Shown here: positions 9,958 to 44,928 of the stretch, piece by piece
Layout: the number at the start of each line of letters is the position of its first letter
Numbering within the stretch: position 1 is the first letter of the stretch
Assembly: GCA_964603725.1 (NCBI GenBank)
Contig: CAZRWW010000001.1
Span: 69,634 to 133,633, forward strand
From: an uncultured bacterium
Lineage (GTDB): Bacteria; Eisenbacteria; RBG-16-71-46; CAIMUX01; WJJG01
Reading direction: 5' to 3'
DNA: 64,000 bases
Program-made: the position numbers and the translations under genes
Notes under the pieces: generated by a model
The model's input: only the letters and a program-made list of their open reading frames with translations
Told to the model about the DNA's origin: nothing
Databases searched by the model: none

Positions 9958-11334
9958 ATGAGCGCGAGCGGCCCCGCACGGCTGTTCAACCGGAACTTCA
10001 CGCTGCTCTGGCAGGCCCAGTTGGTCAGCCAGATTGGCAACCAGCTCCACGCGGTGGCGATGATGTTCTGGGTCAAGCACGCCACCGGGTCCGCCACGCT
10101 GATGGGCACGCTCATGATGGTCGCGATGCTGCCTGGGGTGCTGCTCGGGCCCCTGGGCGGCACGCTGGCCGATCGCTTCTCGCGCCGTTCGATCATCATC
10201 GCCAGCGACCTGGCGCGAGGCTTGCTCGTGCTCTCGCTGGCGGCGCTCCTGTTCCTCCGGCCGCAGGCGACCGGCCAGCAGGTGGTGTGGCTCTTCTTCA
10301 TCGGGATCAGCGCGGCGGTGCTGGGCGCCTTCTTCCGTCCGGCGGTCAGCGCCGCCGTACCCGATCTGGTGCCACGCGAGCGGCTGGCGGCGGCGAACTC
10401 CCTGCTGCAATCGAGCTACCAGCTCACCACCTTCGTCGGCCAGGGAATCGGCGGCACGCTCTTTCGTTTGCTGGGCGCGCCGGCGCTCTTCCTTATCGAC
10501 GGGCTCACTTACATCGCCTGCGCCATCGCCGAGTGCTTCGTGCGGATACCCCAGAGCCTGCCCGAGCGGGCGGGCAGCGCGCGGGAGTTCTTCGCCAAGT
10601 TCGCCGCCGAGACGCGCGCGGGCTTCCGCTACGTCTGGAGGCAACGCGGGCTGCGCAGCCTCTTCGGCGCGGCGGCGCTACTCAACTTCCTCTTCTCGCC
10701 GCTGGTGGTCATGCTGCCCTTCTATGTCGAAGATCATCTGCTCACCGCGCCGGGGGTGCGCGCCACGCCGGACTGGCTGGGATTCCTGCTGGCCGCCATG
10801 GGTATCGGCGCCCTGATCGGCTACGGCCTGGCGGGCGCGCTGCGCCTGCCCGGCCGCCGGCGGGCGGCGCTGTCGATCGGGTCGCTGTGGCTGGTCTGCG
10901 CGGCCATGGGCGCGGCGGGTCTGACCGACCGCGCGATCGTGGCGCTGGCCCTCTTCCTGCTCATGGGGGCCGCCAGCGGCATCGTCAACATCGGCATCGC
11001 GACGACCTTGCAGCTCACCACGCCCGGCGAGATCCGCGGGCGCGTCTTCGGGCTGCTGGGCACGCTCGCCGGCGGGCTCGCCCCGATCGGCATGGGCTTG
11101 GCGGGGATCGTCGTCGACGCGGTGGGACACGACATCCCGCTCATCCTGCGCGCGTGCGGGCTGGCCGCCGTGCTCGCCATGGTGCCGATCGCGCTCGATC
11201 GCTCGCTCTGGTCGTTCCTGGCCTACGAAGCACCGGCGCAGTCAGGCCCGGCCGCGGAGACCGGAGGGGCGGCGCCGGCCGCCTCGGCCTCGGATGCGGC
11301 CCGCGCCGGCGGTTCTACAGACTCCCGAGCTTGA
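9958..11334 (+). CDS. MFS transporter (EntS/YbdA-like efflux family)
   Basis: NFTLLWQAQLVSQIGNQLH... and multiple TM helices. A GxLaDRxgrR motif is GGTLADRFSRR. The track start GTG at 9949 is in frame, and ATG at 9958 is preferred. The low-complexity C-tail overlaps the convergent CHAT gene by about 20 nt. Confidence 0.88.
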   Translation: MSASGPARLFNRNFTLLWQAQLVSQIGNQLHAVAMMFWVKHATGSATLMGTLMMVAMLPGVLLGPLGGTLADRFSRRSIIIASDLARGLLVLSLAALLFLRPQATGQQVVWLFFIGISAAVLGAFFRPAVSAAVPDLVPRERLAAANSLLQSSYQLTTFVGQGIGGTLFRLLGAPALFLIDGLTYIACAIAECFVRIPQSLPERAGSAREFFAKFAAETRAGFRYVWRQRGLRSLFGAAALLNFLFSPLVVMLPFYVEDHLLTAPGVRATPDWLGFLLAAMGIGALIGYGLAGALRLPGRRRAALSIGSLWLVCAAMGAAGLTDRAIVALALFLLMGAASGIVNIGIATTLQLTTPGEIRGRVFGLLGTLAGGLAPIGMGLAGIVVDAVGHDIPLILRACGLAAVLAMVPIALDRSLWSFLAYEAPAQSGPAAETGGAAPAASASDAARAGGSTDSRA

Positions 11335-14242
11335 CCGCGTACGCGGCCCACGTGAACGGGTGCCGGGCGCCCCGGGAACCCTGCAGGTAGGCGCGCTGGG
11401 CCTCGGACAGCGCCTGTTCGGGCGGGGCTCCGTTTCCGGCCCACGCTTGGATGAACCCCCGCATGAGCTCGGCGGCCTCGTCGTCGCGCACGCGCCAGTA
11501 GGTGTCGACCACCGCGGCCGCGCCCGCATCGACGAGCGCGTCGCCCAGGCCCGGCGTGGTCTTCCCGGCTGCTGCATAGGGCGCGCCGCTGGCGCACCCG
11601 GAGAGAACGACCAGCCGGCAGCGCCGCAGATCCCCGGCCCGCACGTCGTCGATGTCCAGATAGGACGCCTCGATCTGCGCTGTGTCCGCGGCCGGGGAGA
11701 GCGGCAGAAAGGTGAGGTACGGCAGCTCCGGGTCGCGGATGAAATGCGCCGCGGCGTAGATGAACGACGCCTGTTCCCAGACCGCAAAGAGAGCCGGCTT
11801 GGTGGCGTCCGCCCCGGTGAAAGTCCGCGCTCCCGGCCGGAGCGCCGCCAGCAGCCTGACCTCGCTCTGCGCCGCCCCCAAGCCGGCCAGGGCCGGGTAG
11901 CGGCGCCGGATCGCGGCGGCGGGCTGCGGATCCGACAGGATCACGCCGGGCCCGGCCGAGTTGGCCGGCCCGCCGCCGCGCTCGAGCCGCAACTGCGCCA
12001 CGGCGTAGCGGGCCACCAGGGGCTCGTAGCCATCGCCGGTGTTCAAGTTGTACGCGGCGAAGGGCAGCAAGCCCAGGAAACCATCCGGCGAGACGATGAC
12101 CTCCGCGATCTCGCGCGGCCCGGCCGCCAGTGAGACCTCGCGCGGCGCGGCCGGCAGCAGGATCTCGGGCGGCAGCAAGGTGGCGGCGATCCCGTGCAGC
12201 AGGCGGGTCAACTCGGGCCCGGGAGGCGCCTCGACGTCCCCCGGATCCTGCGACACCAGCGTCAAGGCTCGGGCCACCTCGGCTCGCAGCTCCTCGGCGG
12301 CGACCGCCAGCGTATCCAGGCGCACGCCGCCCGGACCGGCGCTCCAGCGCAGGAGCGCCCCCGGCGCGATGAGGTAGACGAGGTGCGCCGCGCGCCGCTC
12401 CCGCAGGCGCGCCAGCACGGGAGCGATCAGCGGCTGCACCTGGCCCGCACCCTCGAGGATCCGGCCCGGCTCCGGCCATCGTTCGGGCCGCCCGAAGGCT
12501 GCCGCGCGCGCCGGTCCGGCGGGAACGCCGTTCGGCATGCCTGGCCGGCGGGCGTCGCGCCCCCAGCCCGGGCTCTCCCCCTCGCCCAGAATCAGCGGCA
12601 GCTGCCGCCAGGAGAGCTCGAGCGCGTAGCCGGCAGCCGGATCGTCGCGCAGGAGCTCGTGCAGCGCGTAGCGCAGCTCATCGCAGACGTTCAGGAAGCC
12701 GTAGCCCTGGGCGCCGGCCTCGGCGTGCGCGAGGAACCCTCGCATGCGCGTCAAACCCGCGCGCAGGACCGCGCGCGCGGCCGGGCGGTCGTTCTCGGCC
12801 AGGTGGATTCTCGCCAGGCACGCGTCGTGGAAGATCCAGGCCTCCCGCAGCGCGCGCTCGCCGCCGGGCCCCAGCTCGGCGGCCTGCCGGCGGAAGTCGC
12901 CAAGCGTCTGCAGCGCGGCCGCTTGGTTGCCGAGGTCGCGCAGCGCGAGGGCCAGCACGATGAGGAATCGTCCGCGCGTGGCCGGCAAGGGGCCCGCGGC
13001 GCTCTGCACCAGCCCACGGCCGATGACGGGCAGCGCCGGGCCGGGACGCCCGTTGGCGAGCAGGCCCTGACTCCACGCGTAGAGCAGCTGCAAGTAGTCG
13101 TAGCGGTTGGGCAGCCCGCGCAGCTCGCGCTCGAGGCGCTCGAAGATCGGCAGCGCCTCGTCGACGCGGCCGAGGGACATCAGGTATCGCGCTTCCATCT
13201 CGTCCAGCCGCAGTCCGATGACCCGCTGCTCGACGACGCGCGGCGAGCGGACCGACTCGCGTTGGAGCACGCGCGCCCGTTGGAGCAGCTGCTCGACCAC
13301 CTGCAGGCGGCCGTGCTCGGCGTGGAAGAAGAGCGTCGCCAGGATGAAGCGCAGCTCCAGGTAGCCGCCCTTGTACTCCCGGCAGATTTCCTGGGCCGCG
13401 GTGTGCCGATCGGCCGCCAGCGCCAGGCGGCCCAGGCTGGCGTAGTAGTCGGCGTAATTGGACATGACCGCGGCCGCATGCTCCGGCAGCCGGTGGCGCG
13501 TCGCGATGACCATCGATTCGTTCCAGGTCACGGCCATGGAGTCGATGCGCCCCGCCTCGCGGTGAAACGAGCCCAGCGCTCCCAGGATCTGGGCGGTCAT
13601 GATCGTCAGATCCCCGCGCCGCGCGGCATCCAGCGCGCGGTGCAGGAAGCGCGCGCGCTCCGGCTCGTTGCCCAGCGATGCCATGAACTCCGCCACGGCG
13701 AAGTCGGCCACCGCGGCGGTCATCCAGTCGCCGGCCGATCGGAAGCGCTCCCCGTACGCCCGGAGCAGATCCGTCTTCTCGCCCAGGAGCAGCTCGGGGT
13801 CGAGGTAGACCGCGTTCATCTCCATCTCGAGCCGGCCCAGCTCCGCGCCGGCCTCGGCCGGCAACCCCATCCAGAAGTGATCGTCGCGCAGGAACTCGAC
13901 ACAGCCGTACTGGGAGGCGAGCTGCTGGGACAGGCGGCCGATGTGGGGCATGAGGGCGCGAACGCTGCGCGCGTAGCTCTCGGCGGTGTCGAAAACCAGC
14001 GCATGCCGGAGCGCCAGACGGGCGTCGATCAGCTCCTTGATGCCGGTGTCCGAGCAATAGCGCGCGAAGTCCTCGTCGGCGTCGTGAACCAGCCGCCGCG
14101 CCATGACGGGGTCCAGTTCGGGCGCCAGGGCGAGCAGGCGGTCGGCGGCGTCGTTGGCGCATCCGCACAGCGCGGCGAGGCAGCCGAGCAGCACCAGGCG
14201 GAGGACCGCCTCGAACTTGCGCGCAGCGTCTGGAATCCCCAT
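11315..14242 (-). CDS. CHAT-domain (caspase-like) protease with N-terminal TPR repeats; a probable secreted lipoprotein
   Basis: The C-terminus has RCRLVVLSGCASG...GLGDALVDAGAAAVVDTYWRVRDDEAAELMRGFI, the CHAT catalytic region. TPR-like repeats lie upstream. The likely start is MGIPDAARKFEAVLRLVLLGCLAALCGC (signal plus lipobox LLGC). The track ORF extends to 14446. Confidence 0.8.
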   Translation of the reverse strand: MGIPDAARKFEAVLRLVLLGCLAALCGCANDAADRLLALAPELDPVMARRLVHDADEDFARYCSDTGIKELIDARLALRHALVFDTAESYARSVRALMPHIGRLSQQLASQYGCVEFLRDDHFWMGLPAEAGAELGRLEMEMNAVYLDPELLLGEKTDLLRAYGERFRSAGDWMTAAVADFAVAEFMASLGNEPERARFLHRALDAARRGDLTIMTAQILGALGSFHREAGRIDSMAVTWNESMVIATRHRLPEHAAAVMSNYADYYASLGRLALAADRHTAAQEICREYKGGYLELRFILATLFFHAEHGRLQVVEQLLQRARVLQRESVRSPRVVEQRVIGLRLDEMEARYLMSLGRVDEALPIFERLERELRGLPNRYDYLQLLYAWSQGLLANGRPGPALPVIGRGLVQSAAGPLPATRGRFLIVLALALRDLGNQAAALQTLGDFRRQAAELGPGGERALREAWIFHDACLARIHLAENDRPAARAVLRAGLTRMRGFLAHAEAGAQGYGFLNVCDELRYALHELLRDDPAAGYALELSWRQLPLILGEGESPGWGRDARRPGMPNGVPAGPARAAAFGRPERWPEPGRILEGAGQVQPLIAPVLARLRERRAAHLVYLIAPGALLRWSAGPGGVRLDTLAVAAEELRAEVARALTLVSQDPGDVEAPPGPELTRLLHGIAATLLPPEILLPAAPREVSLAAGPREIAEVIVSPDGFLGLLPFAAYNLNTGDGYEPLVARYAVAQLRLERGGGPANSAGPGVILSDPQPAAAIRRRYPALAGLGAAQSEVRLLAALRPGARTFTGADATKPALFAVWEQASFIYAAAHFIRDPELPYLTFLPLSPAADTAQIEASYLDIDDVRAGDLRRCRLVVLSGCASGAPYAAAGKTTPGLGDALVDAGAAAVVDTYWRVRDDEAAELMRGFIQAWAGNGAPPEQALSEAQRAYLQGSRGARHPFTWAAYAVKLGSL

Positions 14243-14354
14243 CCCCGGGATCGTATCAGAAGGCCAGGAGCCGCAGAATCTCGAACCTACCGCTTGCCTG
14301 GACCCTGGCAGCGCCCTAGGCTGATCAAGGAGCCGGGGCCGAACGGGGCCGACC

Positions 14355-15212
14355 GTGGACACAGACGTCACACCCAAAGTCAGCCAGGATCTGGAGCTCG
14401 TCCGGCGCATCCTGGACGGTTCGCAAGATGCGTGGGAGCAGTTCATCTTGCGCTACTCCGGCCTGATCCACTCCGTCGTGCGCCGGTACCTGTTCGAGCC
14501 CGAGCAAGTGCGCGATGTCTATGTCGAGGTGCTGAGTCGGCTCTACGAAGGCCGCCTGGGCACCTACGAGGGGCGCTCGGCGTTGTCGACCTGGTTGGTG
14601 CTGGTGGCGCGCAGCGTGGCGCTCGACAACCTGCGCCGCCGCTTCGGACGCCGCGAGGTGCCCGGCGGCATCCAGCGCCTGCGCAAGCGCGATCAGCGCG
14701 TCTTCCAGCTCTACTACATCGACGGCCTGAGCTTCGATGCCGTGCGCCACTGGATGTCGCAGCACGGCGAGTCGATCAGCGCTGATGAGCTGGCCGCCGG
14801 CCTGGAGCGCATCGAGAGCTGCATCGACCATCGCACGCTCAAGAGGATCATCTACGACCTGCACGCCCCCTCCGTGGGCGCCGCGTCGGGCCGCATGATG
14901 GAGTTTCTGGATTGGCACCGGGACCGCCAGGAGCGCCTGCGGCGGGAGCGCAATCCGGAGCAGATCTTGATCGACAAGGAGGCCCGCGCCACCGCCGAGC
15001 GCGTACGGGAGCTGCTGGCCGAGCTGCCCGAGGAAGAGCGCCGGGTCCTGACCCTCCGATTCGACCACGGCCGGACGGCGGTGCAGATCGCCGCCGAGAT
15101 GGGATTCGAGAGCCCTCGTCGCTCTTACACCGTTATCGAAAAGGGATTACGGCGCCTGCGCCGTCTGCTGGGAGCTGAGAAGGGCTGTCAGCGGGGGGGC
15201 CAGAAAGGCTGA
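14355..15212 (+). CDS. RNA polymerase sigma-70 family (ECF-like) sigma factor
   Basis: Region 2 is FILRYSGLIHSVVRRYL...LSTWLVLVARSVALDNLRRR. Region 4 is EERRVLTLRFDHGRTAVQIAAEMGFESPRRSYTVIEKGLRRLRR. GTG start per track. Confidence 0.85.
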   Translation: MDTDVTPKVSQDLELVRRILDGSQDAWEQFILRYSGLIHSVVRRYLFEPEQVRDVYVEVLSRLYEGRLGTYEGRSALSTWLVLVARSVALDNLRRRFGRREVPGGIQRLRKRDQRVFQLYYIDGLSFDAVRHWMSQHGESISADELAAGLERIESCIDHRTLKRIIYDLHAPSVGAASGRMMEFLDWHRDRQERLRRERNPEQILIDKEARATAERVRELLAELPEEERRVLTLRFDHGRTAVQIAAEMGFESPRRSYTVIEKGLRRLRRLLGAEKGCQRGGQKG

Positions 15213-15325
15213 TAGTATAGGCGGGTGGCCCGGGAAAGGGTAGTCCCGCCGACGTCTATTCCGTGTGATTCGGCGCTAGGATCCGCCGGGGCGGTGGGTG
15301 GGGCCCACCGGCGGAGAGTGGGAGC

Positions 15326-16270
15326 ATGCTCATGGCCTACCAGGAACACCTCTCGGATGACACCTTGGCCGCCTTGGTGGAGGGCGGGCTGTGCGGCGAA
15401 GAGCAGGCCCGGGCCCGGGAGCACCTCGCCCGGTGCCGGACCTGCATGGCGGCTTACTCCGAGGCGGCCCGCGTCCAGTCGATCTGGCTCGATGAGCCCG
15501 AGATCTTCACCCCGGCCGACGACATCGTGCGCCTCGGCGTCGTTGTGGGGGCGGCCCGTCACGATGCGCTCGCGTCGCGGCCTCCCCGCCGCGTGCCTCG
15601 CCACCGGCAAGCGCCCAGCGGACTGCGGCCGGCTGTGCTCACCTTGGGAGGCGCGGCCGTGGGGCTGGTCGCGGTGCTGATGTGGCTCAGGCCGGGCCTC
15701 CTCGCCCCGGGCCCTCTGCCCGACCGCGGCGTGGTCGCGCTCGTCGAGCGGGCGGCCCAGCGGACGTCGGCCCACGGTATGGTGCTTCCGTTTGGCGACG
15801 GCTTCACGGTCGAGGACATGACCATCTACCGGGCGGGCGCATCCGAGGCCGACCCGGCGCTCAACAGCGCCATTGCGGCCCTCATCGAGAGCTATGAGCG
15901 GACCGAATCCTCGGAGCGCGCCGCGTGCCTGCTGGTCGCCGGCCAGATCGCCGCCGGGCAGCTCGGCAACGCCCGCGCCTTCGTCGCCGAAGCGCTGCGG
16001 CAGCATCCCGGCGATCCTTGCTTGACCACGCTGGCGGCCATCATCGCGTTCCGCGAGAATGATCTGGCGCGCGCCGAGGCGTTGCTCCGCGACGTCGTGG
16101 CGCGCGACCCCGGAAACCTCGTCGCCGGATTCAACCTGGGCCTGCTGCTCACTGAAAGCGGGCGCGCCCATGAAGCGCGGCCCTTCCTCGAGGCGGTCGC
16201 GAGGGCCCGCGCCGGCACGCCTCTCTCCAGTCGCGCCGAGAGTCTCCTCGAGGGTCGCGTTCCCCGTTGA
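15326..16270 (+). CDS. Anti-sigma factor (zinc-finger ZAS type) with one TM helix and C-terminal TPR repeats
   Basis: HxxxCxxC motif EHLARCRTCM. TM segment AVLTLGGAAVGLVAVLMWL. The C-terminus has TPR-like repeats. It lies directly downstream of the sigma factor. Confidence 0.75.
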   Translation: MLMAYQEHLSDDTLAALVEGGLCGEEQARAREHLARCRTCMAAYSEAARVQSIWLDEPEIFTPADDIVRLGVVVGAARHDALASRPPRRVPRHRQAPSGLRPAVLTLGGAAVGLVAVLMWLRPGLLAPGPLPDRGVVALVERAAQRTSAHGMVLPFGDGFTVEDMTIYRAGASEADPALNSAIAALIESYERTESSERAACLLVAGQIAAGQLGNARAFVAEALRQHPGDPCLTTLAAIIAFRENDLARAEALLRDVVARDPGNLVAGFNLGLLLTESGRAHEARPFLEAVARARAGTPLSSRAESLLEGRVPR

Positions 16271-16361
16271 CGATCGCTGAAGGTCTGCCCGCGAGCGGAC
16301 GCCCACCCCGCAGACGACCCGTCGCGCCGCGGGAGCGACCACGCGGGCGCGGCGCCGTGCG

Positions 16362-16400
16362 CCCAAAAGCCAGACGCGCACCCCCGAGAGGGCGCGCGTC
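16362..16400 (-). terminator. Intrinsic terminator downstream of paralog 1
   Basis: GC hairpin GACGCGC(ACCC)...(GGGC)GCGCGTC. On the minus strand it is followed by GGCUUUUGGGCG. Confidence 0.6.
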
Positions 16401-16426
16401 TGATTCACTCAGCTTCAGTCCCAGGA

Positions 16427-17233
16427 CTACTGGAAGAGAGCCTTCACCTGACCCCACGTCGAGCTCTCGACCGGCGAGATGCCGCCGCTGCCCTCGAGGA
16501 TGAAGGGCACGCCCTGCGGGGCGCCGCTGCCGGTGTCGATGAGCTGCTGCCACAGGCCGGAGGCGTACTGCAACGCATCACCCGTCGTGGTCTGGCCCAG
16601 GAAGACGATCGGGTTGCCCCAAGGTCCCGAGGCCAGCGTGCCTGTGTGATCGTAGGCGATCCAGTACCAGCCCGCACTGAGGACGAGCGGCGGACTGAAA
16701 GCGCACACGTTGGCCATGATTGGGCGGTTGGTGTCCATCATGGCGGTGTCGAGCACCCGATAGCAGCCCGACCACGCGGTCGTCACCAACCGGTTGGTGA
16801 CCTGATCCCCGTAGATGACCGTGCCGCCGGGAGGCGCGTCATCCAAGATCTCGAAGTACGCGCCCGTGAAGGTGGACGTCGTCGAGGATCCGGTCTGATA
16901 GCCGAAGAACGTGACCTGGTTGATCGTCCAGGTGCAGCCCGTGGGAACCACGAAGTCGTCGGCAAAGCGATAGGGAATCGTGTGGTTGAAGTTGAAGCCG
17001 TAGACCGACATGCCAAGGGCCGTCTGGACCACCGACGCGTTGGCGCCGCCGTAGCCGCCGCCCGGATGCGTGACGAACGGGCCGTTGTCATACAGGACAT
17101 CCCGCGAGGGAGTCCAGACCGGGCCGCCGTTGGGCGCGATGAAGCCCGTGACCGCCTCGGTGTCAACGGCGAGGTCCGCGAACACTGGGGCAGCTAGGAC
17201 TGCCAGCGCGAACAACACTGCAAAGCTGCGCAT
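16427..17233 (-). CDS. Secreted hypothetical protein, paralog 1 of 3, ending in the WGQVKALFQ C-terminal tag
   Basis: Signal peptide MRSFAVLFALAVLAAPVFA. It is about 85% identical to the two upstream paralogs and ends ...SSTWGQVKALFQ*. AGGAGG lies upstream of the ATG. Confidence 0.8.
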   Translation of the reverse strand: MRSFAVLFALAVLAAPVFADLAVDTEAVTGFIAPNGGPVWTPSRDVLYDNGPFVTHPGGGYGGANASVVQTALGMSVYGFNFNHTIPYRFADDFVVPTGCTWTINQVTFFGYQTGSSTTSTFTGAYFEILDDAPPGGTVIYGDQVTNRLVTTAWSGCYRVLDTAMMDTNRPIMANVCAFSPPLVLSAGWYWIAYDHTGTLASGPWGNPIVFLGQTTTGDALQYASGLWQQLIDTGSGAPQGVPFILEGSGGISPVESSTWGQVKALFQ

Positions 17234-17363
17234 CTTCTAACCTCCTGTCGACTTTGCACCGCCGCAGGGAACAGCGACTCCTGGTTTCGCACCAAGCACT
17301 GCGCACCCGCGGCCGCGCACTCACTGAACACAAGGTTTGATGCAGCGGCCGGATCACTCTGCT

Positions 17364-17402
17364 GTGAGACCCTTTCCCATTGCTGGGCGACCTGACTCTC
17401 AC
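17364..17402 (-). promoter_or_regulatory. Conserved inverted-repeat element at the predicted 5' end of the paralog transcripts (copy 1)
   Basis: GTGAGA-N27-TCTCAC with an internal CCCA-GCAA-UGGG (GNRA-capped) hairpin. It starts 5-8 nt after the -10 box. Copies lie at 18562..18600 and 19761..19798. Confidence 0.5.
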
Positions 17403-17404
17403 AT

Positions 17405-17440
17405 CCATAATGATACCGACGACCTGTAGCTGTGTTCAAG
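17405..17440 (-). promoter_or_regulatory. Putative sigma70-like promoter for paralog 1
   Basis: Minus strand TTGAAC-N18-TATCAT. A homologous TTGAAT-N18-TAGGAT lies at 18608..18637, and TTGAAG-N18-TAGAAT at 19806..19835. Confidence 0.45.
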
Positions 17441-17554
17441 CACAATGACAGTGATTCGGGTGTCCCCTCCACGGGGTTCATCCAGCTGACGGGGGAGTGC
17501 CGGAAGCGCGGCCTGATCATCAATTCTGTTTACGGCCGTAACCAGTCACGCGCG

Positions 17555-17591
17555 CCCAAAAGCAGACGCGCGCCCCTCGGGGGCGCGCGTC
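17555..17591 (-). terminator. Intrinsic terminator downstream of paralog 2
   Basis: Perfect 12-bp stem GACGCGCGCCCC/GGGGCGCGCGTC with a 3-4 nt loop. On the minus strand it is followed by UGCUUUUGGG. Confidence 0.75.
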
Positions 17592-17619
17592 CGACGGAAC
17601 TCGGCTTCCGTTCCTCAAG

Positions 17620-18432
17620 CTACTGGAACAGAGCCTTCACCTGACCCCACGTCGAGCTCTCGACCGGCGAGATGCCGCCGCTGCCCTCGAGAATGAAGGG
17701 CACGCCCTGGCCGGTGCCAGTGCCGGTGTCGATGAGCTGATTCCACATCCCCGAGGACGCGGTGTACTGGAGGCCGTCACCCGTCGTCGTCATGCCCAGG
17801 ATCGTGACCGGCGGGCACCAGGGCCCGGAGGCCAGCGTTCCCGTGCAATCGAACGCGATGTAGTACCAGCCGGGTCCCAGGACCAGGGGCGGAGTGACCG
17901 CGCACACGTTCGCCATAACCGGACGGTTGGTGTCCATCATGGCGGTGTCGAGCACGCGGTACATGTTCGCCCAGGCCGTCGTGACCAGGCGGTTGGTCAC
18001 CGTGTCACCCCAGATCACGGCGCCGCCGGGAGGCACGTCATCGAAGATCCGGATGTACGCACCCGTGTAGCTGGATGTCGTCCCGGAGCCTGTCTGATAG
18101 CCGAAGATCGTGACCTGGTTGATCGTCCAGGTGCAGCCCTGGGGAACCACAAAGTCATCGGCCATCGTGTTCGGCAGCGTGTGCTGGAAGCCGAAGCCGT
18201 ACGTCGACAGCCCCAGAGCGGTCTGGAGCACCGACGCGTTGGCGCCGCCGTAGCCGCCACCCGGGTGGGTGACCAGCGGGCCGTTGTCGTACAGGACATC
18301 CCGTGAGGGAGTCCAAATCGGGCCGCCGTTGGGCGCGATGAAGCCCGTGACCGTCTCGGTGTCGGCTTCGAAGTCCGCCAGCACCGGAGCGACCAAGGCT
18401 GCCAGCGCGAACAACACTGCAAAGCTGCGCAT
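17620..18432 (-). CDS. Secreted hypothetical protein, paralog 2 of 3, ending in the WGQVKALFQ tag
   Basis: MRSFAVLFALAALVAPVLA signal. Same family as 16427..17233. Ends ...SSTWGQVKALFQ*. Confidence 0.8.
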   Translation of the reverse strand: MRSFAVLFALAALVAPVLADFEADTETVTGFIAPNGGPIWTPSRDVLYDNGPLVTHPGGGYGGANASVLQTALGLSTYGFGFQHTLPNTMADDFVVPQGCTWTINQVTIFGYQTGSGTTSSYTGAYIRIFDDVPPGGAVIWGDTVTNRLVTTAWANMYRVLDTAMMDTNRPVMANVCAVTPPLVLGPGWYYIAFDCTGTLASGPWCPPVTILGMTTTGDGLQYTASSGMWNQLIDTGTGTGQGVPFILEGSGGISPVESSTWGQVKALFQ

Positions 18433-18561
18433 CTTCTAACCTCCTGTCGACACTTGCACGCTACAGAGATTGTCGCCCTGTGGCTTCCTGCCCAGTGACA
18501 CATCCCCGTAGCCGCGCACTCACTGAACGTAAGGTTGATGCAGCGGCCGGATCACTCTGCT

Positions 18562-18600
18562 GTGAGACCCTTTCCCATTGCTGGGTGACCTGGTTCTCAC
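18562..18600 (-). promoter_or_regulatory. Conserved inverted-repeat 5' element, copy 2
   Basis: Homologous to 17364..17402 with 3 substitutions. Confidence 0.5.
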
Positions 18601-18607
18601 ACCAGCG

Positions 18608-18637
18608 ATCCTAATGGCACTTGAGAGCTGCATTCAA
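18608..18637 (-). promoter_or_regulatory. Putative sigma70-like promoter for paralog 2
   Basis: Minus strand TTGAAT-N18-TAGGAT, at the same relative position as in the other copies. Confidence 0.4.
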
Positions 18638-18751
18638 GCGCCTTTTTGCAGTAACTCGGGAGCCCCCTCCACGGGGTCCATCCGACGGCCGGGAGAGCAC
18701 CGGGAGTGCGGTCTGGTCGTCATTTTGGTTTACGGTTGTAACTAACCGTCC

Positions 18752-18793
18752 TCGCCTAAATGCAGACGCGCACCCCCGAGGGGCGCGCGTCTG
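18752..18793 (-). terminator. Intrinsic terminator downstream of paralog 3
   Basis: Stem CAGACGCGCACCC/GGGCGCGCGTCTG with one mismatch. On the minus strand it is followed by CAUUUAGG. Confidence 0.55.
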
Positions 18794-18817
18794 ATTCACT
18801 CAGCCTCAGTCCCAGGA

Positions 18818-19630
18818 CTACTGGAACAGAGCCTTCACCTGACCCCAGGTCGAGCACTCGACCGGCGAGCAGCCGCCCGTGCCCTCGAGAATGAAGGGCA
18901 CGCCCTGGCCGGTGCCAGTGCCGCTGTCGATGGCCTGATTCCACATGCCCGAGGACGCGGTGTACTGGAGAGCGTCACCCGTCGTCGTGATGCCCAGGAT
19001 CGAGACCGGCGGGCACCAGGGCCCGGAGGACAGCGTTCCCGTGCAATCGAAGGCGATGTAGTACCAGCCCGCGCTCAGAACCAGAGGCGGATCCACGGCG
19101 CACACGTTCGCCATGACCGGACGGTTGGTGTCCATCATGGACGTGTCGAGCACGCGGTACATGTTCGCCCAGGCCGTCGTGACCAGGCGGTTGGTGACCG
19201 TGTCACCCCAGATCACGGCGCCGCCGGGAGGCGCATCGTCGAAGATACGGATGTACGCACCCGTGAAGCTCGACGTCGTCCCGGAGCCGGTCTGGTAACC
19301 GAAGATCGTGACCTGGTTGATGGTCCAGGTCTGGCCCTGGGGAACCACGAAGTCATCGGCCATCGTGTTCGGCAGCGTGTGCTGGAAACCGAAGCCGTAC
19401 AACGAAAGTCCCAGAGCGGTCTGGAGCACCGACGCGTCCGCGCCGCCGTAGCCGCCACCCGGGTGGGTGACCAGCGGGCCGTTGTCGTACAGGACATCCC
19501 GTGAGGGAGTCCAAATCGGGCCGCCGTTGGGCGCGATGAAGCCCGTGACCGTCTCGGTGTCGGCTTCGAAGTCCGCCAGCACCGGAGCGACCAAGGCTGC
19601 CAGCGCGAACAACACTGCAAAGCTGCGCAT
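18818..19630 (-). CDS. Secreted hypothetical protein, paralog 3 of 3, ending in the WGQVKALFQ tag
   Basis: MRSFAVLFALAALVAPVLA signal. Ends ...CSTWGQVKALFQ*. Confidence 0.8.
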   Translation of the reverse strand: MRSFAVLFALAALVAPVLADFEADTETVTGFIAPNGGPIWTPSRDVLYDNGPLVTHPGGGYGGADASVLQTALGLSLYGFGFQHTLPNTMADDFVVPQGQTWTINQVTIFGYQTGSGTTSSFTGAYIRIFDDAPPGGAVIWGDTVTNRLVTTAWANMYRVLDTSMMDTNRPVMANVCAVDPPLVLSAGWYYIAFDCTGTLSSGPWCPPVSILGITTTGDALQYTASSGMWNQAIDSGTGTGQGVPFILEGTGGCSPVECSTWGQVKALFQ

Positions 19631-19760
19631 CTTCTAACCTCCTGTCGACTCCCGCGCCGCCACAGAAACCAACGTCCCCCGGCTTGCTGCCAGGGGGCGC
19701 TTCCCTGCGGCCGCGCACTCACAGAACCACATGTTGTTGCAGCGGCCAGAACACTCTACC

Positions 19761-19798
19761 GTGAGACCCTTCCCATTGCTGGGTGACCTGGCTCTCAC
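19761..19798 (-). promoter_or_regulatory. Conserved inverted-repeat 5' element, copy 3
   Basis: Homologous to 17364..17402 with a 1-nt deletion. Confidence 0.5.
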
Positions 19799-19805
19799 AC
19801 CCAAG

Positions 19806-19835
19806 ATTCTACCTTGTCCCGGGCGCTCTCTTCAA
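19806..19835 (-). promoter_or_regulatory. Putative sigma70-like promoter for paralog 3
   Basis: Minus strand TTGAAG-N18-TAGAAT. Confidence 0.45.
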
Positions 19836-19965
19836 GCCCTTTCTGCGCCTTTGTGGCGTGCCGTAAATGAGTGTTTCAAATTGCCTAAAGTGTTCTTATA
19901 TAATTGGTTGTGTGCCTTGTGGTCACCGGTCGCCACCGCCCGGAACCCTGGTCCGGGGCAGCCAC

Positions 19966-22512
19966 CTACTCCCACCAACGAATCAGTCGGGTAACGTGAC
20001 GATTACCCATGTCAACATGGCTGGGCATGACCCGCACCGCGAATCCCTCGCGCCCGCTGCGCCGGCACTCGATCTCGCCCCGGAACAGGTGTACGCGCTC
20101 ACCCTCGTGACCCTCGAGGCGCATCACGACGGTCTCAGGCCCGGCGAGCTGGCCGCGAGCATCGAGATGCCCGGTCACGATCTCGACGACCACGTCATCC
20201 GGCTGGAGCGCGCCGAGCTCGATCTGGCACCAGACGCCGATCTCCTGGCCGACCTTGGCCTCCTCGGTCCCGCTGGCGTGGACGCTGCGAATGCGCACGT
20301 TGTGCCATTCGCGCCCGACCCGCTCCTGCCAGGCGGCCAGCGCCCGGGCCCGCGCCCCCTTCTCGGCGGTGAGCGTCTGGTACCGCTCGGCGGTGGCCGC
20401 GTAGTACTGGCTCACGTAGTCGCACACCATGCGATTGGTGTTGAAGACCGGGCAGAGCTGGCCCATCGCCGCCTTCATCTTGGCGATCCACCCGCGCGGC
20501 AGGCCATCCTTGCCGCGGGCGTAGAACAGCGGCACGATGTCGTTCTCCAGCAGATCGTAGATCGACGCCGACTCGACCGCATCCTGGTAGTCCTCGTCCT
20601 GGTACTCCTCCCCGTGGCCGATCGCCCAGCCCACCTCGCGCGTGTAGGCCTCATCCCACCAGCCGTCCAGCACGCTCAGGTTCGGCGCCCCGTTGGCCAC
20701 CGCCTTCATGCCGCTCGTGCCGCTGGCCTCGCGCGGCCGGCGGGGCGTGTTGAGCCAGACGTCGCACCCCTGCACGAGATAGCGCGCGATCGCCATGTCG
20801 TAGTTCTCGAGGAAGATCACCCGGCGCCGGATGCGCTCATCGCGCACGTGGTGGATCAGATCGCGAATCAGTCGCTTGCCATTGTCGTCCTGCGGATGCG
20901 CCTTGCCCGCGAAGATGATCTGCACGGGCGTCTCGGGATGGCAGAGGATGCGCACCAGCCGCTCGAAATCGCGGAACAGCAGGGTGCCCCGCTTGTACGG
21001 CGCGAATCTCCGGGCGAATCCGATCGTCAGCGTGCGCGGATCGAGCACCTCGCCGGCCATGCGGATCTCGTTGTCGGGCGCGCCGCGGTTCTCGAGCTGG
21101 CGCGCCAGCGTCTTGCGGGCGAAGGCCACCAGCCGCTCGCGCCGCCGCTCGTGCGTGCGCCAGAGCTCCTCATCGGGAATCTCCGCCACGCCTTCCCAGA
21201 CCGACTGGTCGGACGGATCCTCTGTCCAGCGCGGCCCGAGGTAGCGATCGAAGAGCGAGGCCAGGTCGAAGGAGATCCAGGAGCGGGCGTGAACGCCGTT
21301 GGTGATGTGGCCGATGGGGAGCTCCTCCTCCGGGGCGCCCGGCCACAGGTGGGCGAACATCCGCCGCGAGACCTGCCCGTGCAGGCGGCTGACGCCGTTG
21401 ACGCAGTTGGCCAGCCGAATCGCCAGTACGGCCATGCTGAACTCGTCGCGCCGGACGTCGCGGCCGAGGTCGACCAGCCGCTCGACCGCAACGCCCATCC
21501 GATCGGCATAGGGCTTCAAGTAGACCTGCACGAGCGGCACCGGGAAGACGTCGATTCCCGCCGGCACCGGCGTGTGCGTCGTGAAGACATTGCCCGCTTC
21601 GGCCGCCAGACGCGCCTCCTCGAACGAGAGCCCCGCCGTCTCCATCAGCGCGCGAATGCGCTCGATGGCCAGGAAGGCCGAATGGCCCTCGTTCATGTGA
21701 CACACGGTCGGCCGGATGCCCAGCGCCTCGAGGGCCCGCAGGCCCCCCACGCCGAGCAGCAACTCCTGGCGGATGCGCATCTCCTTGTCGCCGCCGTAGA
21801 GCTCGTCCGCGATGTCCTGATCGGCCTGGCTGTTGGCGGGGACATTGGTATCGAGCAGGATCAGCGGAATCCGGCCGACCTGCGCCCGCCAGACCTGCGC
21901 CACCACCTGGCGATCGGCCATGTCGACCAGCACGCGCAGCGGCGACCCGTCGGCCTTGCGCTCGAGGCTGATCGGCATCGTCGGGAAATCGTTGACCGGG
22001 TAGCTCTCATGCTGCCACCCGTCGTTGGTCAGGTACTGCCGGAAGTAGCCCTTCTGATACAGCAGGCCGACGCCTACCAGCGGGATGCCCAGCTCGGAGG
22101 CCGCCTTCAGGTGATCGCCGGCCAGGATGCCCAGGCCGCCCGAGTAGATCGGCATGCACTCGGTGATCGCGAACTCGGCCGAGAAGTAGGCGACGTTGCA
22201 CTGGTCTCCGTGCCGCAATCCCTCGCACATCCAGCCCTGGCGCTCCAGGTGGCGATGGAGCTCGCCCGCGACGCGCCCCATGTGGACGTGGAAGCCGTCG
22301 TCCTTGGCAAGTTGTTCGAGCCGGTGCTGGTCGACGTCGCCCAGCATCTTCACGGGATTGTGGCCGGAGGTCTCCCAAAGGTTCTTGTCGATGCGCCGAA
22401 AAAGCTCGATGCTGTCGTGGTCCCAGGCCCAGCGCAGGTTGTAGGCGATTTCCTTCAAGGGCAGAAGGGAATCGGGCAGGGCCGGGGTGACGTGGAACTG
22501 CTGAATACGCAT
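19966..22512 (-). CDS. glgP: Alpha-glucan phosphorylase (GlgP family, about 850 aa, PLP-dependent)
   Basis: MRIQQFHVTPALPDSLLPLKEIAYNLRWAWDHDSIELFRRID...FSAEFAITECMPIYSGGLGILAGDHLKAASELGIPLVGVGLLYQKGYFRQ... and PLP-site GTSGMKAVANGAPNLSVLDGWWDEAY. Confidence 0.95.
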   Translation of the reverse strand: MRIQQFHVTPALPDSLLPLKEIAYNLRWAWDHDSIELFRRIDKNLWETSGHNPVKMLGDVDQHRLEQLAKDDGFHVHMGRVAGELHRHLERQGWMCEGLRHGDQCNVAYFSAEFAITECMPIYSGGLGILAGDHLKAASELGIPLVGVGLLYQKGYFRQYLTNDGWQHESYPVNDFPTMPISLERKADGSPLRVLVDMADRQVVAQVWRAQVGRIPLILLDTNVPANSQADQDIADELYGGDKEMRIRQELLLGVGGLRALEALGIRPTVCHMNEGHSAFLAIERIRALMETAGLSFEEARLAAEAGNVFTTHTPVPAGIDVFPVPLVQVYLKPYADRMGVAVERLVDLGRDVRRDEFSMAVLAIRLANCVNGVSRLHGQVSRRMFAHLWPGAPEEELPIGHITNGVHARSWISFDLASLFDRYLGPRWTEDPSDQSVWEGVAEIPDEELWRTHERRRERLVAFARKTLARQLENRGAPDNEIRMAGEVLDPRTLTIGFARRFAPYKRGTLLFRDFERLVRILCHPETPVQIIFAGKAHPQDDNGKRLIRDLIHHVRDERIRRRVIFLENYDMAIARYLVQGCDVWLNTPRRPREASGTSGMKAVANGAPNLSVLDGWWDEAYTREVGWAIGHGEEYQDEDYQDAVESASIYDLLENDIVPLFYARGKDGLPRGWIAKMKAAMGQLCPVFNTNRMVCDYVSQYYAATAERYQTLTAEKGARARALAAWQERVGREWHNVRIRSVHASGTEEAKVGQEIGVWCQIELGALQPDDVVVEIVTGHLDARGQLAGPETVVMRLEGHEGERVHLFRGEIECRRSGREGFAVRVMPSHVDMGNRHVTRLIRWWE

Positions 22513-24350: not shown

Positions 24351-25874
24351 TCAGGGGGCGCGGCGCCCGGTCTCCCCGCGCTCCGCGACGCGCTGATCGA
24401 CAGGCGCCCCCGCGGCGACGGGATCGCCCTGGCTCAGCGAGTCGATGAAGGCTTCCAGGGTCTGGGTCAGCACGCGATATCCATCCTGATTGGGCCACGG
24501 GCCCGATCCCGCGAACTCCCGCCGCAGGTAGTTGTGATCGCCGACCAGAGGCGCAAAGAGGTCGACAACCGGCCAGCCCATGCGTTCGCCGAGCTCCTTG
24601 AGACCCCGGTTCACCTTCGCGATGCGCCCCACATAGGTCCCAGCGGCCGAGTCCGACTCGGCCGCGATCGGGGGAATGGTGGCCAGAATGGGCAGGATCC
24701 CACAGTCCAGCACGGCCTCGCCGAGGATGCGCGTTTGGAGCAGAAGCTGCTGCGGCTTGACGACGTCGCGTAGCGGCGGCAACAGCACGAACTGCATGGG
24801 CACCAGCGAGACGACGTCCTGTTCGGCGCGCAGCATGAGCTGAATCATGTTCTGGCCGCTGATGGAACGATTGACGATGTTCTTCTCACGCAGCGCGCGC
24901 AGCAGCTTCCACTCGGCGCCCACGTCGGCGCCGTAGACGATCGTCAGCGCCCCGCGCCGGTAGCGGCCTTCCTGCATCAGCTTGAGGTTGGACTCGCGGA
25001 AATGGCTCACGTTGGCCGGATCCCTCGCGATTCGGCTCAGCTCCTCGATCCGCGTGCGGTACTCGTTCGCTTTCAGGACGGTGGCGAGACTGAGCGCCAA
25101 GGAGAGCACCGCGGCGGCCGTCATCACCGGAAGAGCCGTGGGGATCTTCCTGGGCGCGGGGGGCCTGAACGCCGGGAGACGACGGCGAGGGGCAGGATCA
25201 CGGTCCGGCGCGGGCGCGGAATCGGGCTCGGGCTCCTCGCCGGGCTCGAGCCCGGCGGGGGGCGCTGGCTCCTCGACAGGCTCGGCTGCAGCGAAGGGCG
25301 CTGGCTCCTCGTCGGGCTCGGCCTCGGCGGCGGGCGCTGGCTCCTCGTCGGGCTCGGCCTCGGCGGCGGGCCCTGGCTCGGCGACAGGCTCGGCTGCAGC
25401 GGTGGGCGCTGGCTCGGCGACAGGCTCGTCCTCGGCCGGAGGCTTGGCGCCGACTTCAGGCCCGGGCTCGGCCAGGATATCAATCCCGGCCAGCTCCTCG
25501 AGCTCGGCAATGACATCGGGGTCCAGGGCGGGCTCGGCCGCAGGCGGCTCCTCCATCGCCGGCGGCGCCTCGGCGGCCGCAGGCGGCTCCTCCACCGCCG
25601 GCGGCGCATCGGCGGCCAAAGGCGGCTCCTCCACCCCCGGCGGGGTCTCGGCCGCAGGCGGCTCCTCCACCGCCGGCGGCGCATCGGCGCCGGGTGACGG
25701 GCCGGCCTCGGGCGCGATGCCCTCGTCCAGCTTGGCCTCCGCGAGCGCCCGGATCATGTCATCCACAGCGGCCGGCGACTCTGCGTCGGCTCCCGCCGCA
25801 GGCGGGCCGCCTTCGGGCGGGATCGCTCCCTCGGAGCCCTCGGGGGGCCGGTCGATCTCGTTGGGCTCGGTCAC
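24351..25874 (-). CDS. Single-pass membrane protein with an N-terminal acidic Pro/Ala/Glu-rich repeat region and a C-terminal SGNH/GDSL-like (tentative) domain
   Basis: PPAVEEPPAAAEAPPAMEEPPAAE repeats encoded by 36-bp DNA repeats. TM helix ALPVMTAAAVLSLALSLATVL. A C-terminal domain of about 260 aa. GAGAGGA lies upstream of the ATG. Confidence 0.6.
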   Translation of the reverse strand: MTEPNEIDRPPEGSEGAIPPEGGPPAAGADAESPAAVDDMIRALAEAKLDEGIAPEAGPSPGADAPPAVEEPPAAETPPGVEEPPLAADAPPAVEEPPAAAEAPPAMEEPPAAEPALDPDVIAELEELAGIDILAEPGPEVGAKPPAEDEPVAEPAPTAAAEPVAEPGPAAEAEPDEEPAPAAEAEPDEEPAPFAAAEPVEEPAPPAGLEPGEEPEPDSAPAPDRDPAPRRRLPAFRPPAPRKIPTALPVMTAAAVLSLALSLATVLKANEYRTRIEELSRIARDPANVSHFRESNLKLMQEGRYRRGALTIVYGADVGAEWKLLRALREKNIVNRSISGQNMIQLMLRAEQDVVSLVPMQFVLLPPLRDVVKPQQLLLQTRILGEAVLDCGILPILATIPPIAAESDSAAGTYVGRIAKVNRGLKELGERMGWPVVDLFAPLVGDHNYLRREFAGSGPWPNQDGYRVLTQTLEAFIDSLSQGDPVAAGAPVDQRVAERGETGRRAP

Positions 25875-41365: not shown

Positions 41366-41548
41366 GTTCGACTCCTTGGTCCGTGATCCTCAACCCGTGA
41401 TCGGCGATCCGCGCTCCTCGATGCCCGATCGGTTGCCCCGATCCGCGGCCCTTGTCGCGGGGTCGCATCCTCCCGCCGGCTCGAGCCCCCCCGCCCGCCA
41501 TGAGCCGGGTCGGGCGAGCGGAAGCCGATATTCTACCCCATTCGGGCG

Positions 41549-41644
41549 CACGACGCCGCAGCCCTGGCTGCCCACGACGCCGCAGCCCTGGCTGCCCACG
41601 ACGCCGCAGCCCTGGCTGCCCACGATGCCGCAGCCCTGGCTGCC
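41549..41644. repeat. 24-bp tandem repeat x4 (CACGACGCCGCAGCCCTGGCTGCC), intergenic
   Basis: Four consecutive copies, the last with a GAT variant. It lies between the divergent alkaline-phosphatase-like gene and the ALDH gene. Confidence 0.9.
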
Positions 41645-41857
41645 CCCTCCTCCGGCGCACCGGCTGGAGGAGGCGCCGACCGCGCCGCGCATCTGCTTGC
41701 AGGGGCTACCCTTCCTGGGTGTTCGGCTCCGGCGGCCCTCTTCTCTACCCGATCTCCGCTCCGGGTAGGCGCGGGCGCGTCCGACAATAGGAACACGGGA
41801 CGGGGCCCGGCAACAGCGGCCCGAGCGCCGATGCGCATTCCCGCGGAGAGGACGCCC

Positions 41858-44763: not shown

Positions 44764-44823
44764 CGCGTTCTTCCCTCGGATCCCCGGCCTGCTGCCGGCG
44801 GGGCGCCACCCCCCGCTGGTCAT

Positions 44824-44928
44824 CCCGTGCGCGGCAATCCCGTGCGCGGCAATCCCGTGCGCGGCAATCCCGTGCCCGGCATTCCCATGCTCGGCCATCC
44901 CGTGCGCGGCAATTCCGTGCCCGGCGGC
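44824..44928. repeat. 15-bp tandem repeat x7 (CCCGTGCGCGGCAAT) immediately upstream of, or in the 5' extension of, the C_GCAxxG_C_C gene
   Basis: Seven head-to-tail copies with a few substitutions. If translated on the minus strand they encode (HGIAA)n. Confidence 0.9.

What the first reader, a model, noticed from the sequence alone, without database searches (positions are those of the whole stretch)
17364..17402. Conserved GTGAGA-N27-TCTCAC element with an internal GNRA-capped hairpin at the predicted transcript 5' end of each paralog
The element starts about 6 nt downstream of the putative -10 box in all three copies (17364..17402, 18562..18600 and 19761..19798). The outer 6-bp arms can pair. 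The centre forms CCCA-GCAA-UGGG, a GNRA tetraloop hairpin. Substitutions among the copies fall in the unpaired bulge. It could be a 5' RNA stability or regulatory structure. Its position overlapping +1 would also suit a repressor operator.
Basis: partly seen in the sequence, partly recalled or inferred. Interest (0 to 1): 0.55.

Follow-up and report, generated by a model that had tools for sequence, protein, structure and literature searches.

The report
Conserved 5' leader hairpin of paralogs
Three tandem genes for secreted proteins in an uncultured Eisenbacteria-like bacterium each begin their predicted mRNA with the same strongly conserved 39-base hairpin, most likely an mRNA-level stability or regulatory signal, an ordinary kind of element in a form not yet catalogued.

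Summary
GTGAGA-N26/27-TCTCAC occurs exactly three times (17364-17402, 18562-18600, 19761-19798). It is read on the minus strand and starts 7 nt after a conserved sigma-70-type promoter, in front of three tandem paralogs encoding 268-270 aa secreted beta-sandwich proteins of unknown function. The same element precedes orthologues and paralogs in other metagenome contigs down to 58% protein identity. It stays 80-100% identical where fourfold-degenerate sites are 46-87% identical.

No stem position varies informatively, so covariation cannot be tested for this hairpin. Indirect evidence favours RNA:
- Conservation begins at the predicted +1.
- Ten of 26 unpaired columns vary, against 1 of 24 paired columns, and that one is a pair-preserving C-to-U change.
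- The 3' internal loop varies in length (3-5 nt).
- The two nested palindromes are not concentric.
- A downstream long hairpin in the same leader shows real compensatory changes.

Rfam has no match. The loop is not strictly GNRA, since one copy has GCCA.

Best reading: a 5'-terminal stem-loop of a structured ~170-nt leader, comparable to the ompA and aprE stabilisers, whose sequence invariance implies a specific binding partner. A DNA operator remains possible. The transcription start site has not been mapped. Interest is modest.

The parts
17364..17402 (-). hp1 copy 1: predicted 5'-terminal bipartite stem-loop (GUGAGAGUCAGGUCGCCCAGCAAUGGGAAAGGGUCUCAC) of the leader of gene 16427-17233
18562..18600 (-). 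hp1 copy 2, leader of gene 17620-18432
19761..19798 (-). hp1 copy 3 (one A shorter in the 3' internal loop), leader of gene 18818-19630
17355..17363 (-). Conserved single-stranded 3' flank of hp1 (AGC-AGAGUG). AGAGUG is invariant in all 11 copies seen. The same flank lies at 18553-18561 and 19752-19760.
17410..17439 (-). Sigma-70-type promoter of copy 1: TTGAAC (17439-17434), 18 nt, TATCAT (17415-17410). There are 7 nt from the -10 to hp1.
18608..18637 (-). Promoter of copy 2: TTGAAT, 18 nt, TAGGAT; 7 nt to hp1
   Evidence: sequence read
19806..19835 (-). Promoter of copy 3: TTGAAG, 18 nt, TAGAAT; 7 nt to hp1
17256..17319 (-). hp3 copy 1: long imperfect hairpin of the leader. Its sequence is variable but its pairing is kept by compensatory and G-U changes. 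It ends about 10 nt before the SD.
18456..18518 (-). hp3 copy 2
19654..19717 (-). hp3 copy 3
17241..17246 (-). Shine-Dalgarno AGGAGG of copy 1, within the invariant GUCGACAGGAGGUUAGAAG-AUG. The same motif lies at 18440-18445 and 19638-19643.
16427..17233 (-). Paralog 1: 268 aa with a signal peptide, a beta-sandwich fold and the C-terminal tail STWGQVKALFQ
17620..18432 (-). Paralog 2, 270 aa
18818..19630 (-). Paralog 3, 270 aa
17563..17593 (-). G+C-rich hairpin followed by UGCUUUU: intrinsic terminator of paralog 2, which makes paralog 1 its own transcription unit. The equivalent terminator of paralog 3 lies at 18763-18793.
   Evidence: hairpin coordinates

Best explanation
The element acts as RNA. 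Each of the three paralogs is transcribed from its own housekeeping-type promoter, and transcription starts at or within a nucleotide or two of the first G of GUGAGA. The first 39 nt fold into a two-tier hairpin that base-pairs the very 5' end of the mRNA. This hairpin works with a long, structure-conserved hairpin just upstream of a strong Shine-Dalgarno sequence. A 5'-terminal stem-loop of this kind shields the mRNA from 5'-end-dependent decay, as in the ompA, papA and aprE leaders, and so supports high, durable expression of these secreted proteins.

A simple stabiliser would not need a fixed sequence. Here both stems, the 5' internal loop AGGUCR and the 3' flank AGAGUG are invariant, so the hairpin is most likely also the docking site of a sequence-specific trans-acting factor. 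That factor is probably a protein and would co-regulate all paralogs.

Shown: the presence of the element, its purifying selection, its foldability, the promoter footprint, and the structured, covarying leader. Inferred: the TSS, the stabilising effect, and the existence and nature of the factor.
For: 1. Position. A conserved -35/-10 pair with non-conserved spacers occurs in all 6 full copies from two genomes. The conserved block begins exactly 7 nt after the -10.

2. Selection. The element is 80-100% identical in every pair of copies. Fourfold-degenerate sites of the adjacent genes are 46-87% identical and the variable part of the same leader is 31-71%. The element is kept in front of proteins down to 58% identity.

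3. Variation follows the fold. One of 24 paired columns varies, a C-to-U change that keeps a G-U pair. Ten of 26 unpaired columns vary (Fisher p=0.005).

4. Arm spacing varies from 26 to 28 nt, because the 3' internal loop is 3-5 nt long and free in sequence (AAG, AAAG, AAAGG, AAAAG, ATTC, ATAC, AAAC). The inner palindrome (centre 21.5) is not concentric with the outer one (centre 20). Both features are natural for an RNA internal loop and awkward for a dimeric DNA-binding protein.

5. The same leader contains a long hairpin with 10 pairs changed on both sides (0/500 shuffles reach this). It is 88.7% paired, against 30-56% when the partners are slid, and has many G-U pairs on the minus strand only. 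The region is therefore transcribed and selected as RNA.

6. hp1 forms with probability 0.94-1.0 for five of its six outer-arm pairs in the full leader. The minus-strand RNA folds better than the plus-strand RNA (-14.3 against -9.4 kcal/mol).

7. An A-run indel shifts the frame of every small ORF in the region, so it is not a leader peptide.

8. Stabilisation by 5'-terminal base pairing is established for ompA, papA and aprE (reference list of PMC3997798).
Against: There is no compensatory change in hp1 itself, so its pairing is not demonstrated by covariation. The TSS is only predicted from the promoter consensus. Thermodynamic z-scores are modest (-2.4 to -3.2). Complete invariance of the stems is not what a pure structural stabiliser predicts, and it would equally fit recognition of double-stranded DNA. 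No candidate RNA-binding regulator was identified nearby. The RNase complement of the organism is unknown.
Confidence: 0.55

Rival explanations
1. The element is a DNA operator. The conserved block from +1 to about +48 would be one or more binding sites for a transcription factor, either a repressor sitting over the start site or an activator. The arms GTGAGA/TCTCAC and CCCA/TGGG would be half-sites.
For: The block has perfect dyad arms and overlaps the predicted +1. Both stems are completely invariant, with no covariation over a range in which the neighbouring hairpin covaries freely. A long contiguous invariant block also covers 'unpaired' bases.
Against: The spacing of the outer arms varies from 26 to 28 bp, and the centre-to-centre distance of about 33 bp is unusual for a dimer. 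The inner and outer palindromes have different centres. Conservation starts sharply at the predicted +1 and does not straddle the promoter. The one stem change, C-to-U, gives G-U in the RNA but an A-C mismatch in the mirror half-site sense. No transcription factor gene lies next to the array in either genome; the only regulators nearby are a sigma/anti-sigma pair, and the promoter is of the housekeeping type.
Confidence: 0.2
2. The element is a ligand- or sRNA-responsive regulatory RNA. hp1, the AGAGUG flank and the following short hairpin would form a sensor, riboswitch-like or an antisense target, that changes translation or decay of the paralog mRNAs.
For: Loop, flank and stem bases are invariant, as in aptamer cores. 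The leader is structured.
Against: Nothing in Rfam 15 matches, even at E up to 10. There is no terminator or anti-SD alternative pairing that is conserved. The UCUC/GAGG pairing with the SD seen appeared only when the 5' arm was removed. The module is small at 48 nt. The genes suggest no metabolite. The tentative pairing between the internal loop and the 3' flank has a U-U mismatch in 6 of the 11 copies (sequence inspection).
Confidence: 0.1
3. The element has no function of its own. The identity among copies would be left over from recent tandem duplication or gene conversion, or would serve only as a homology tract for recombination between paralogs.
For: The three window copies are paralogous, and paralogs 2 and 3 are 93% identical in protein. 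Short metagenome contigs break inside the element, which shows it is an exact repeat within those genomes.
Against: The element is kept across different genomes, before proteins only 58-68% identical, while the rest of the leader and the synonymous sites have diverged. Its variable positions follow the predicted fold. No recombinase gene lies nearby. The copies are direct repeats, and each has its own promoter.
Confidence: 0.05

Closest known systems
E. coli ompA 5' UTR (hp1 at the 5' terminus plus hp2 next to the RBS) and the papA 5' stem-loop (Emory, Bouvet and Belasco 1992; Arnold et al. 1998; Bricker and Belasco 1999; cited through PMC3997798)
   Same: Both have a long 5' UTR on an mRNA for an abundant exported protein. 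Both have a stem-loop that pairs the first nucleotides of the transcript and a second hairpin just upstream of the Shine-Dalgarno sequence. The expected mechanism is the same: the 5' end is hidden from 5'-end-dependent RNase attack.
   Different: There is no sequence or Rfam relationship. The ompA effect depends on structure rather than sequence (my own knowledge), whereas here the sequence, including loops and stems, is invariant. The function has not been tested here. The organism is an uncultured Eisenbacteria-like bacterium whose RNases are unknown.
Bacillus subtilis aprE leader 5' stem-loop (Hambraeus et al. 2002, cited in PMC3997798) and S-layer gene leaders such as Lactobacillus slpA (own knowledge)
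   Same: Both combine a 5' stem-loop with a strong RBS to give very stable mRNAs for highly expressed secreted proteins.
   Different: The sequences are unrelated. Those leaders are single genes, not a co-conserved module repeated before each member of a tandem paralog array.
rne 5' UTR hp2, a stem-loop with a conserved internal loop bound by RNase E for autoregulation (Schuck et al. 2009, cited in PMC3997798)
   Same: Both are 5' UTR hairpins in which internal-loop nucleotides are sequence-constrained because a protein reads them.
   Different: No binding protein is known here. The rne hairpin is not at the 5' terminus. There is no sequence similarity.
Operators overlapping the transcription start, such as lac O1 (own knowledge)
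   Same: Both are inverted repeats placed over +1.
   Different: Typical operators are 14-24 bp with a fixed half-site spacing and a single dyad axis. This element is 39-48 bp, has variable arm spacing and has two non-concentric dyads.

Membership tests
Any Rfam 15 family (riboswitches, leaders, ribozymes, sRNAs) | A covariance-model match at or near the family's gathering score | tested here: not met
   One search ran cmscan on 16000-20500, both strands, at E up to 10. Only chance hits appeared (E 1.5-9, all far below gathering score). The hits nearest the element were PVT1_4, which spans copy 2 on the opposite strand, and mir-7558 on the terminator hairpins.
5'-terminal stem-loop mRNA stabiliser (ompA/papA/aprE type) | The stem-loop begins within about 0-4 nt of the transcript's 5' end | tested here: inconclusive
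   The stem starts 7 nt after a conserved -10 hexamer in 6 of 6 full copies. The TSS is predicted, not mapped.
5'-terminal stem-loop mRNA stabiliser (ompA/papA/aprE type) | A stable hairpin forms in the context of the whole leader | tested here: met
   Pair probabilities are 0.94-1.0 for five of the six outer-arm pairs (about 0.5 for A6-U34 in four copies) and 0.87-0.99 for the inner stem. Free energy is -14.3 to -15.5 kcal/mol, z -2.4 to -3.2.
5'-terminal stem-loop mRNA stabiliser (ompA/papA/aprE type) | The hairpin lengthens mRNA half-life, and disrupting the stem shortens it | not testable with these tools
   This needs half-life measurements on stem and compensatory mutants.
Structured RNA supported by covariation | Compensatory base changes maintain the pairs | tested here: inconclusive
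   In hp1, 11 of 12 pairs never vary and one shows C-G to U-G. The neighbouring hp3 meets the criterion, with 10 pairs changed on both sides and 0/500 shuffles reaching that.
GNRA-tetraloop hairpin | The loop is G-N-R-A in all members | tested here: not met
   The loop is GCAA in 7 of the 11 distinct copies, GCGA in 3, and GCCA in L001 copy a (also in the duplicate contig L002). The third position is free, so GNRA identity is not required.
Intrinsic terminator / transcription attenuator | A G+C-rich hairpin followed by a U-tract inside the leader | tested here: not met
   No U-run follows hp1, hp2 or hp3. True terminators lie upstream of the promoters (17563-17593, 18763-18793).
Dimeric transcription-factor operator | A single dyad axis and fixed half-site spacing | tested here: not met
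   Arm spacing is 26, 27 or 28 nt among copies. The inner and outer palindromes are centred 1.5 nt apart.
Leader peptide (uORF) control | A conserved small ORF in the leader | tested here: not met
   The only AUG, in CAAUGGG, opens frames that differ between copies because of the A-run indel.

The most novel reading that the evidence does not exclude
The invariant 48-nt module (hp1 plus AGAGUG) would be a new, lineage-specific cis-regulatory RNA family. It would be the docking site for a dedicated RNA-binding regulator or small ligand that coordinately controls a tandem family of secreted beta-sandwich proteins in Eisenbacteria-like bacteria. Under this reading it is more than a passive 5' stabiliser.
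Probability: 0.3. Interest if true: 0.5.

Novelty: new member of a known kind. Interest (0 to 1): 0.3.

Why it matters
The element gives a concrete, strongly selected cis-element in a phylum with no cultured members and no known gene-regulation biology. It marks a family of secreted proteins, with no Pfam, NCBIfam or confident PDB match, as probably highly or coordinately expressed. It could be added to RNA-family catalogues, and its invariant loops offer bait for finding the first RNA-binding regulator in this lineage. A practical point is that the element is an exact repeat that breaks metagenome assemblies of these loci. As a mechanism, though, it is most likely a variation on the well-known 5' stem-loop theme.

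Tried and rejected
- Rfam scan of the region: nothing.
- Protein-pattern scan of GTDB genomes: no relative.
- DNA pattern scan of JGI metagenomes with both stems left free: only the syntenic contig plus four chance hits. The pattern required GGGU and so missed the CGGU variants found later.
- DNA pattern scan of GTDB genomes with the inner stem free: one chance hit in an alphaproteobacterium with no stems.
- More distant homologues at 48-60% identity (L003, L012, L023, L025): these have unrelated leaders. L003 and L025 do carry other hairpins at predicted +3, but those are not statistically unusual.
- Leader peptide: rejected because of the frame-shifting indel.
- Anti-SD pairing of UCUC with the SD: seen only when the 5' arm was cut off. 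It is 4 bp with a G-U pair and is outcompeted by hp1 in full leaders.
- Pseudoknot between the internal loop GGUCA and the 3' flank UGAUCC: 6 of the 11 copies have a U-U mismatch, so it is not supported.
- K-turn in the internal loop: the 3' strand loses its G-A potential in the ATTC and ATAC variants.
- CRP-like TGTGA...TCACA: the spacing is 29 rather than 6, and the flanking T/A is not conserved.
- Link to the neighbouring sigma/anti-sigma pair: the promoter is of the housekeeping type, not ECF type.
- Recombinase or transcription factor genes near the array: none found.
- Structure prediction of the protein: pLDDT 89.7, a beta-sandwich, but no PDB match at E<0.001.

Full report
**What is there.** The window carries three tandem genes on the minus strand: 16427-17233, 17620-18432 and 18818-19630. 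They encode 268-270 aa and are 78-93% identical to each other. Each has a signal peptide and no Pfam or NCBIfam match. The AlphaFold model is confident (pLDDT 89.7) and shows a beta-sandwich with no PDB match at E<0.001. Each protein ends in a short predicted helix, STWGQVKALFQ. Each gene is followed by a G+C-rich hairpin and UGCUUUU, which is an intrinsic terminator. Each is preceded by about 390 nt of intergenic DNA. The glycogen phosphorylase next door is 93% identical to one on a JGI contig, and its nearest named relatives are Candidatus Eisenbacteria at 66-72%. The window therefore comes from an uncultured Eisenbacteria-like bacterium.

**Check of the observation.** GTGAGA-N25-29-TCTCAC occurs three times, at the stated coordinates, against 0.03 expected. 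Read on the transcribed (minus) strand, it is GUGAGA-R-YC-AGGUCR-CCCA-GCAA-UGGG-A(2-3)G-GG-UCUCAC. The predicted fold has a 6-bp outer stem, a one-base bulge and two more pairs. A 6-nt/3-4-nt internal loop follows, then a 4-bp stem and a tetraloop. Free energy is -14.3 to -15.5 kcal/mol, with z -2.4 to -3.2. Aligning the three upstream regions shows a sigma-70-type promoter: TTGAAY, 18 nt, then TATCAT, TAGGAT or TAGAAT. Its spacer and 7-nt discriminator are not conserved. The conserved block starts exactly at GUGAGA.

**Relatives.** A syntenic JGI contig (L001) carries glgP, three paralogs, an anti-sigma factor and a sigma factor. It has the same promoter and the same element before each paralog. 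Five further populations have proteins 58-79% identical to paralog 2. They are known only from contigs of about 1 kb, and every one of those contigs begins inside the element (...CAGGUCACCCAGCAAUGGG...) and ends just after the stop codon. This is the signature of assembly breaks at exact repeats, so those genomes also hold several copies.

More distant homologues (48-60% identity; L003, L012, L023, L025) have unrelated leaders. Pattern scans of the JGI metagenome set and of the GTDB species representatives returned only the syntenic contig and chance hits. A covariance model built on the element finds nothing else in the window or in the loci held. The element is therefore confined to one narrow lineage and to this gene family. 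It is absent before another secreted protein in the window that shares the C-terminal tail.

**Selection.** Across all pairs of copies, the 33-47 nt of the element are 80-100% identical. Fourfold-degenerate sites of the adjacent genes are 46-87% identical, and the variable part of the same leader is 31-71%. This is purifying selection on the sequence, not a remnant of duplication.

**RNA or DNA.** Eleven of the twelve hp1 pairs never vary, and the twelfth changes from C-G to U-G. Five indirect lines favour RNA.
- Conservation begins at the predicted +1 rather than straddling the promoter.
- Variable columns avoid the pairs. One of 24 paired columns varies, against 10 of 26 unpaired columns (Fisher p=0.005). 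The variable positions are the bulge, the last base of the 5' internal loop, the third loop base, the 3' internal loop and the linker.
- The 3' internal loop is free in both length and sequence (AAG, AAAG, AAAGG, AAAAG, ATTC, ATAC, AAAC). The outer arms are therefore 26-28 nt apart, and the inner palindrome is off-centre by 1.5 nt. A dimeric DNA-binding protein with one dyad axis would not tolerate this, but an RNA internal loop does.
- The rest of the leader is demonstrably structured RNA. A long hairpin (17256-17319 and equivalents) has a freely varying sequence, yet it is 88.7% paired, against 30-56% with slid partners. It has 10 pairs changed on both sides (0/500 shuffles) and many G-U pairs that exist only on the minus strand.
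- In the full 170-nt leaders hp1 forms with probability 0.94-1.0 for five of its six outer-arm pairs.

A leader peptide is excluded, because the A-run indel shifts every frame.

**Mechanism.** The layout is a hairpin pairing the first nucleotides of the transcript, a second hairpin just before a strong invariant SD (GUCGACAGGAGGUUAGAAG-AUG), and a gene for a secreted protein. The ompA, papA and aprE leaders share this layout, and in them 5'-terminal base pairing blocks 5'-end-dependent decay (PMC3997798). I take this as the most likely basic role.

Those stabilisers work through structure alone, however, whereas here the stems, the AGGUCR loop and the AGAGUG flank are frozen. The neighbouring hp3 shows what structure-only constraint looks like in these same genomes. 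The extra constraint is best explained by a sequence-specific partner, most simply an RNA-binding protein, that acts on all paralogs. No such partner could be identified. The adjacent genes are a sigma/anti-sigma pair, a CHAT-TPR protein, glgP and hydrolases.

**Rivals.** A DNA operator over +1 remains possible, at about 0.2. It would explain the invariant stems, but it fits the variable spacing, the off-centre dyads and the sharp 5' boundary poorly, and no transcription factor is encoded nearby. A riboswitch-like or sRNA-responsive sensor (about 0.1) has no support beyond the invariance. There is no conserved alternative pairing and no Rfam match. A functionless duplication remnant or recombination tract (about 0.05) is contradicted by the cross-genome conservation.

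The loop is not strictly GNRA. GCCA occurs in L001 copy a and GCGA in three distinct copies. The functional unit extends to about +48 and is part of a three-hairpin leader.

**Verdict.** This is a real, strongly selected cis-element that is not in Rfam. It is most likely a 5'-terminal leader hairpin acting at the mRNA level, with a probable sequence-specific partner. The kind is well known and this instance is new. The TSS and the function are unmeasured. Interest is modest.

Noticed in passing
window 17256-17319, 18456-18518, 19654-19717 (minus strand): A long imperfect hairpin lies in each leader just upstream of the SD. Its sequence diverges freely, but pairing is kept by compensatory and G-U changes: 10 pairs changed on both sides in 11 sequences.
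   Followed up: yes
window 58433-59338 (minus strand), and the 3' ends of the three paralogs: An unrelated predicted secreted protein ends in PTTWGQIKAFFE, the same short tail as the paralogs (STWGQVKALFQ, modelled as a helix). Homologues elsewhere carry PEP-CTERM or other C-termini instead. This suggests a lineage-specific C-terminal sorting tag.
   Followed up: partly
L013-L021 (metagenome contigs of 973-996 nt): All of these contigs start inside the conserved hairpin and stop 12-30 nt after the stop codon. Exact repeats (the leader element and the tail-coding end) break short-read assemblies of these tandem arrays.
   Followed up: partly
L001 6930-6981: A perfect 22-bp inverted repeat with an 8-nt loop (GCGGCCCCCGGGAGGAATGTTT-TCTTATGT-AAACATTCCTCCCGGGGGCCGC) lies between the terminator of paralog a and the promoter of paralog b. 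It is absent from the window.
   Followed up: no
L012 340-760: Upstream of a 53%-identical homologue, the motif GTGGCACCTATC recurs at least seven times, interleaved with CAAATCAACAAA(T/C)GTGAAC. This is an unrelated repeat array of unknown nature.
   Followed up: no
window 14355-16270 (plus strand) and 11315-14446 (minus strand): A sigma-70 family factor (regions 2 and 4, 285 aa) and a zf-HC2/TPR anti-sigma-like protein converge on the paralog array. A 1043-aa CHAT-domain TPR protein lies beyond them. The sigma/anti-sigma synteny with the array is kept in L001.
   Followed up: partly
window 19850-19915: An A+T-rich island sits in otherwise G+C-rich DNA between glgP and paralog 3. It has a near-consensus promoter-like site on the plus strand (TTCAAA, 18 nt, TATAAT, 19875-19904) that points antisense into the 3' end of glgP.
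   Followed up: no
window 25189-25722, 41546-41665, 44793-44954, 56904-57023: Several short-period tandem repeats (36/18-21 nt, 24 nt, 15 nt and 12 nt units) were reported by the repeat finder. They probably encode low-complexity repeats.
   Followed up: no
L003 3926-3945 and L025 2876-2945: Distant homologues without the element still have a stable hairpin beginning at about +3 of their predicted transcripts, with unrelated sequences. This hints that a 5'-proximal hairpin may be a general feature of this gene family's mRNAs. The folds are not statistically unusual.
   Followed up: partly
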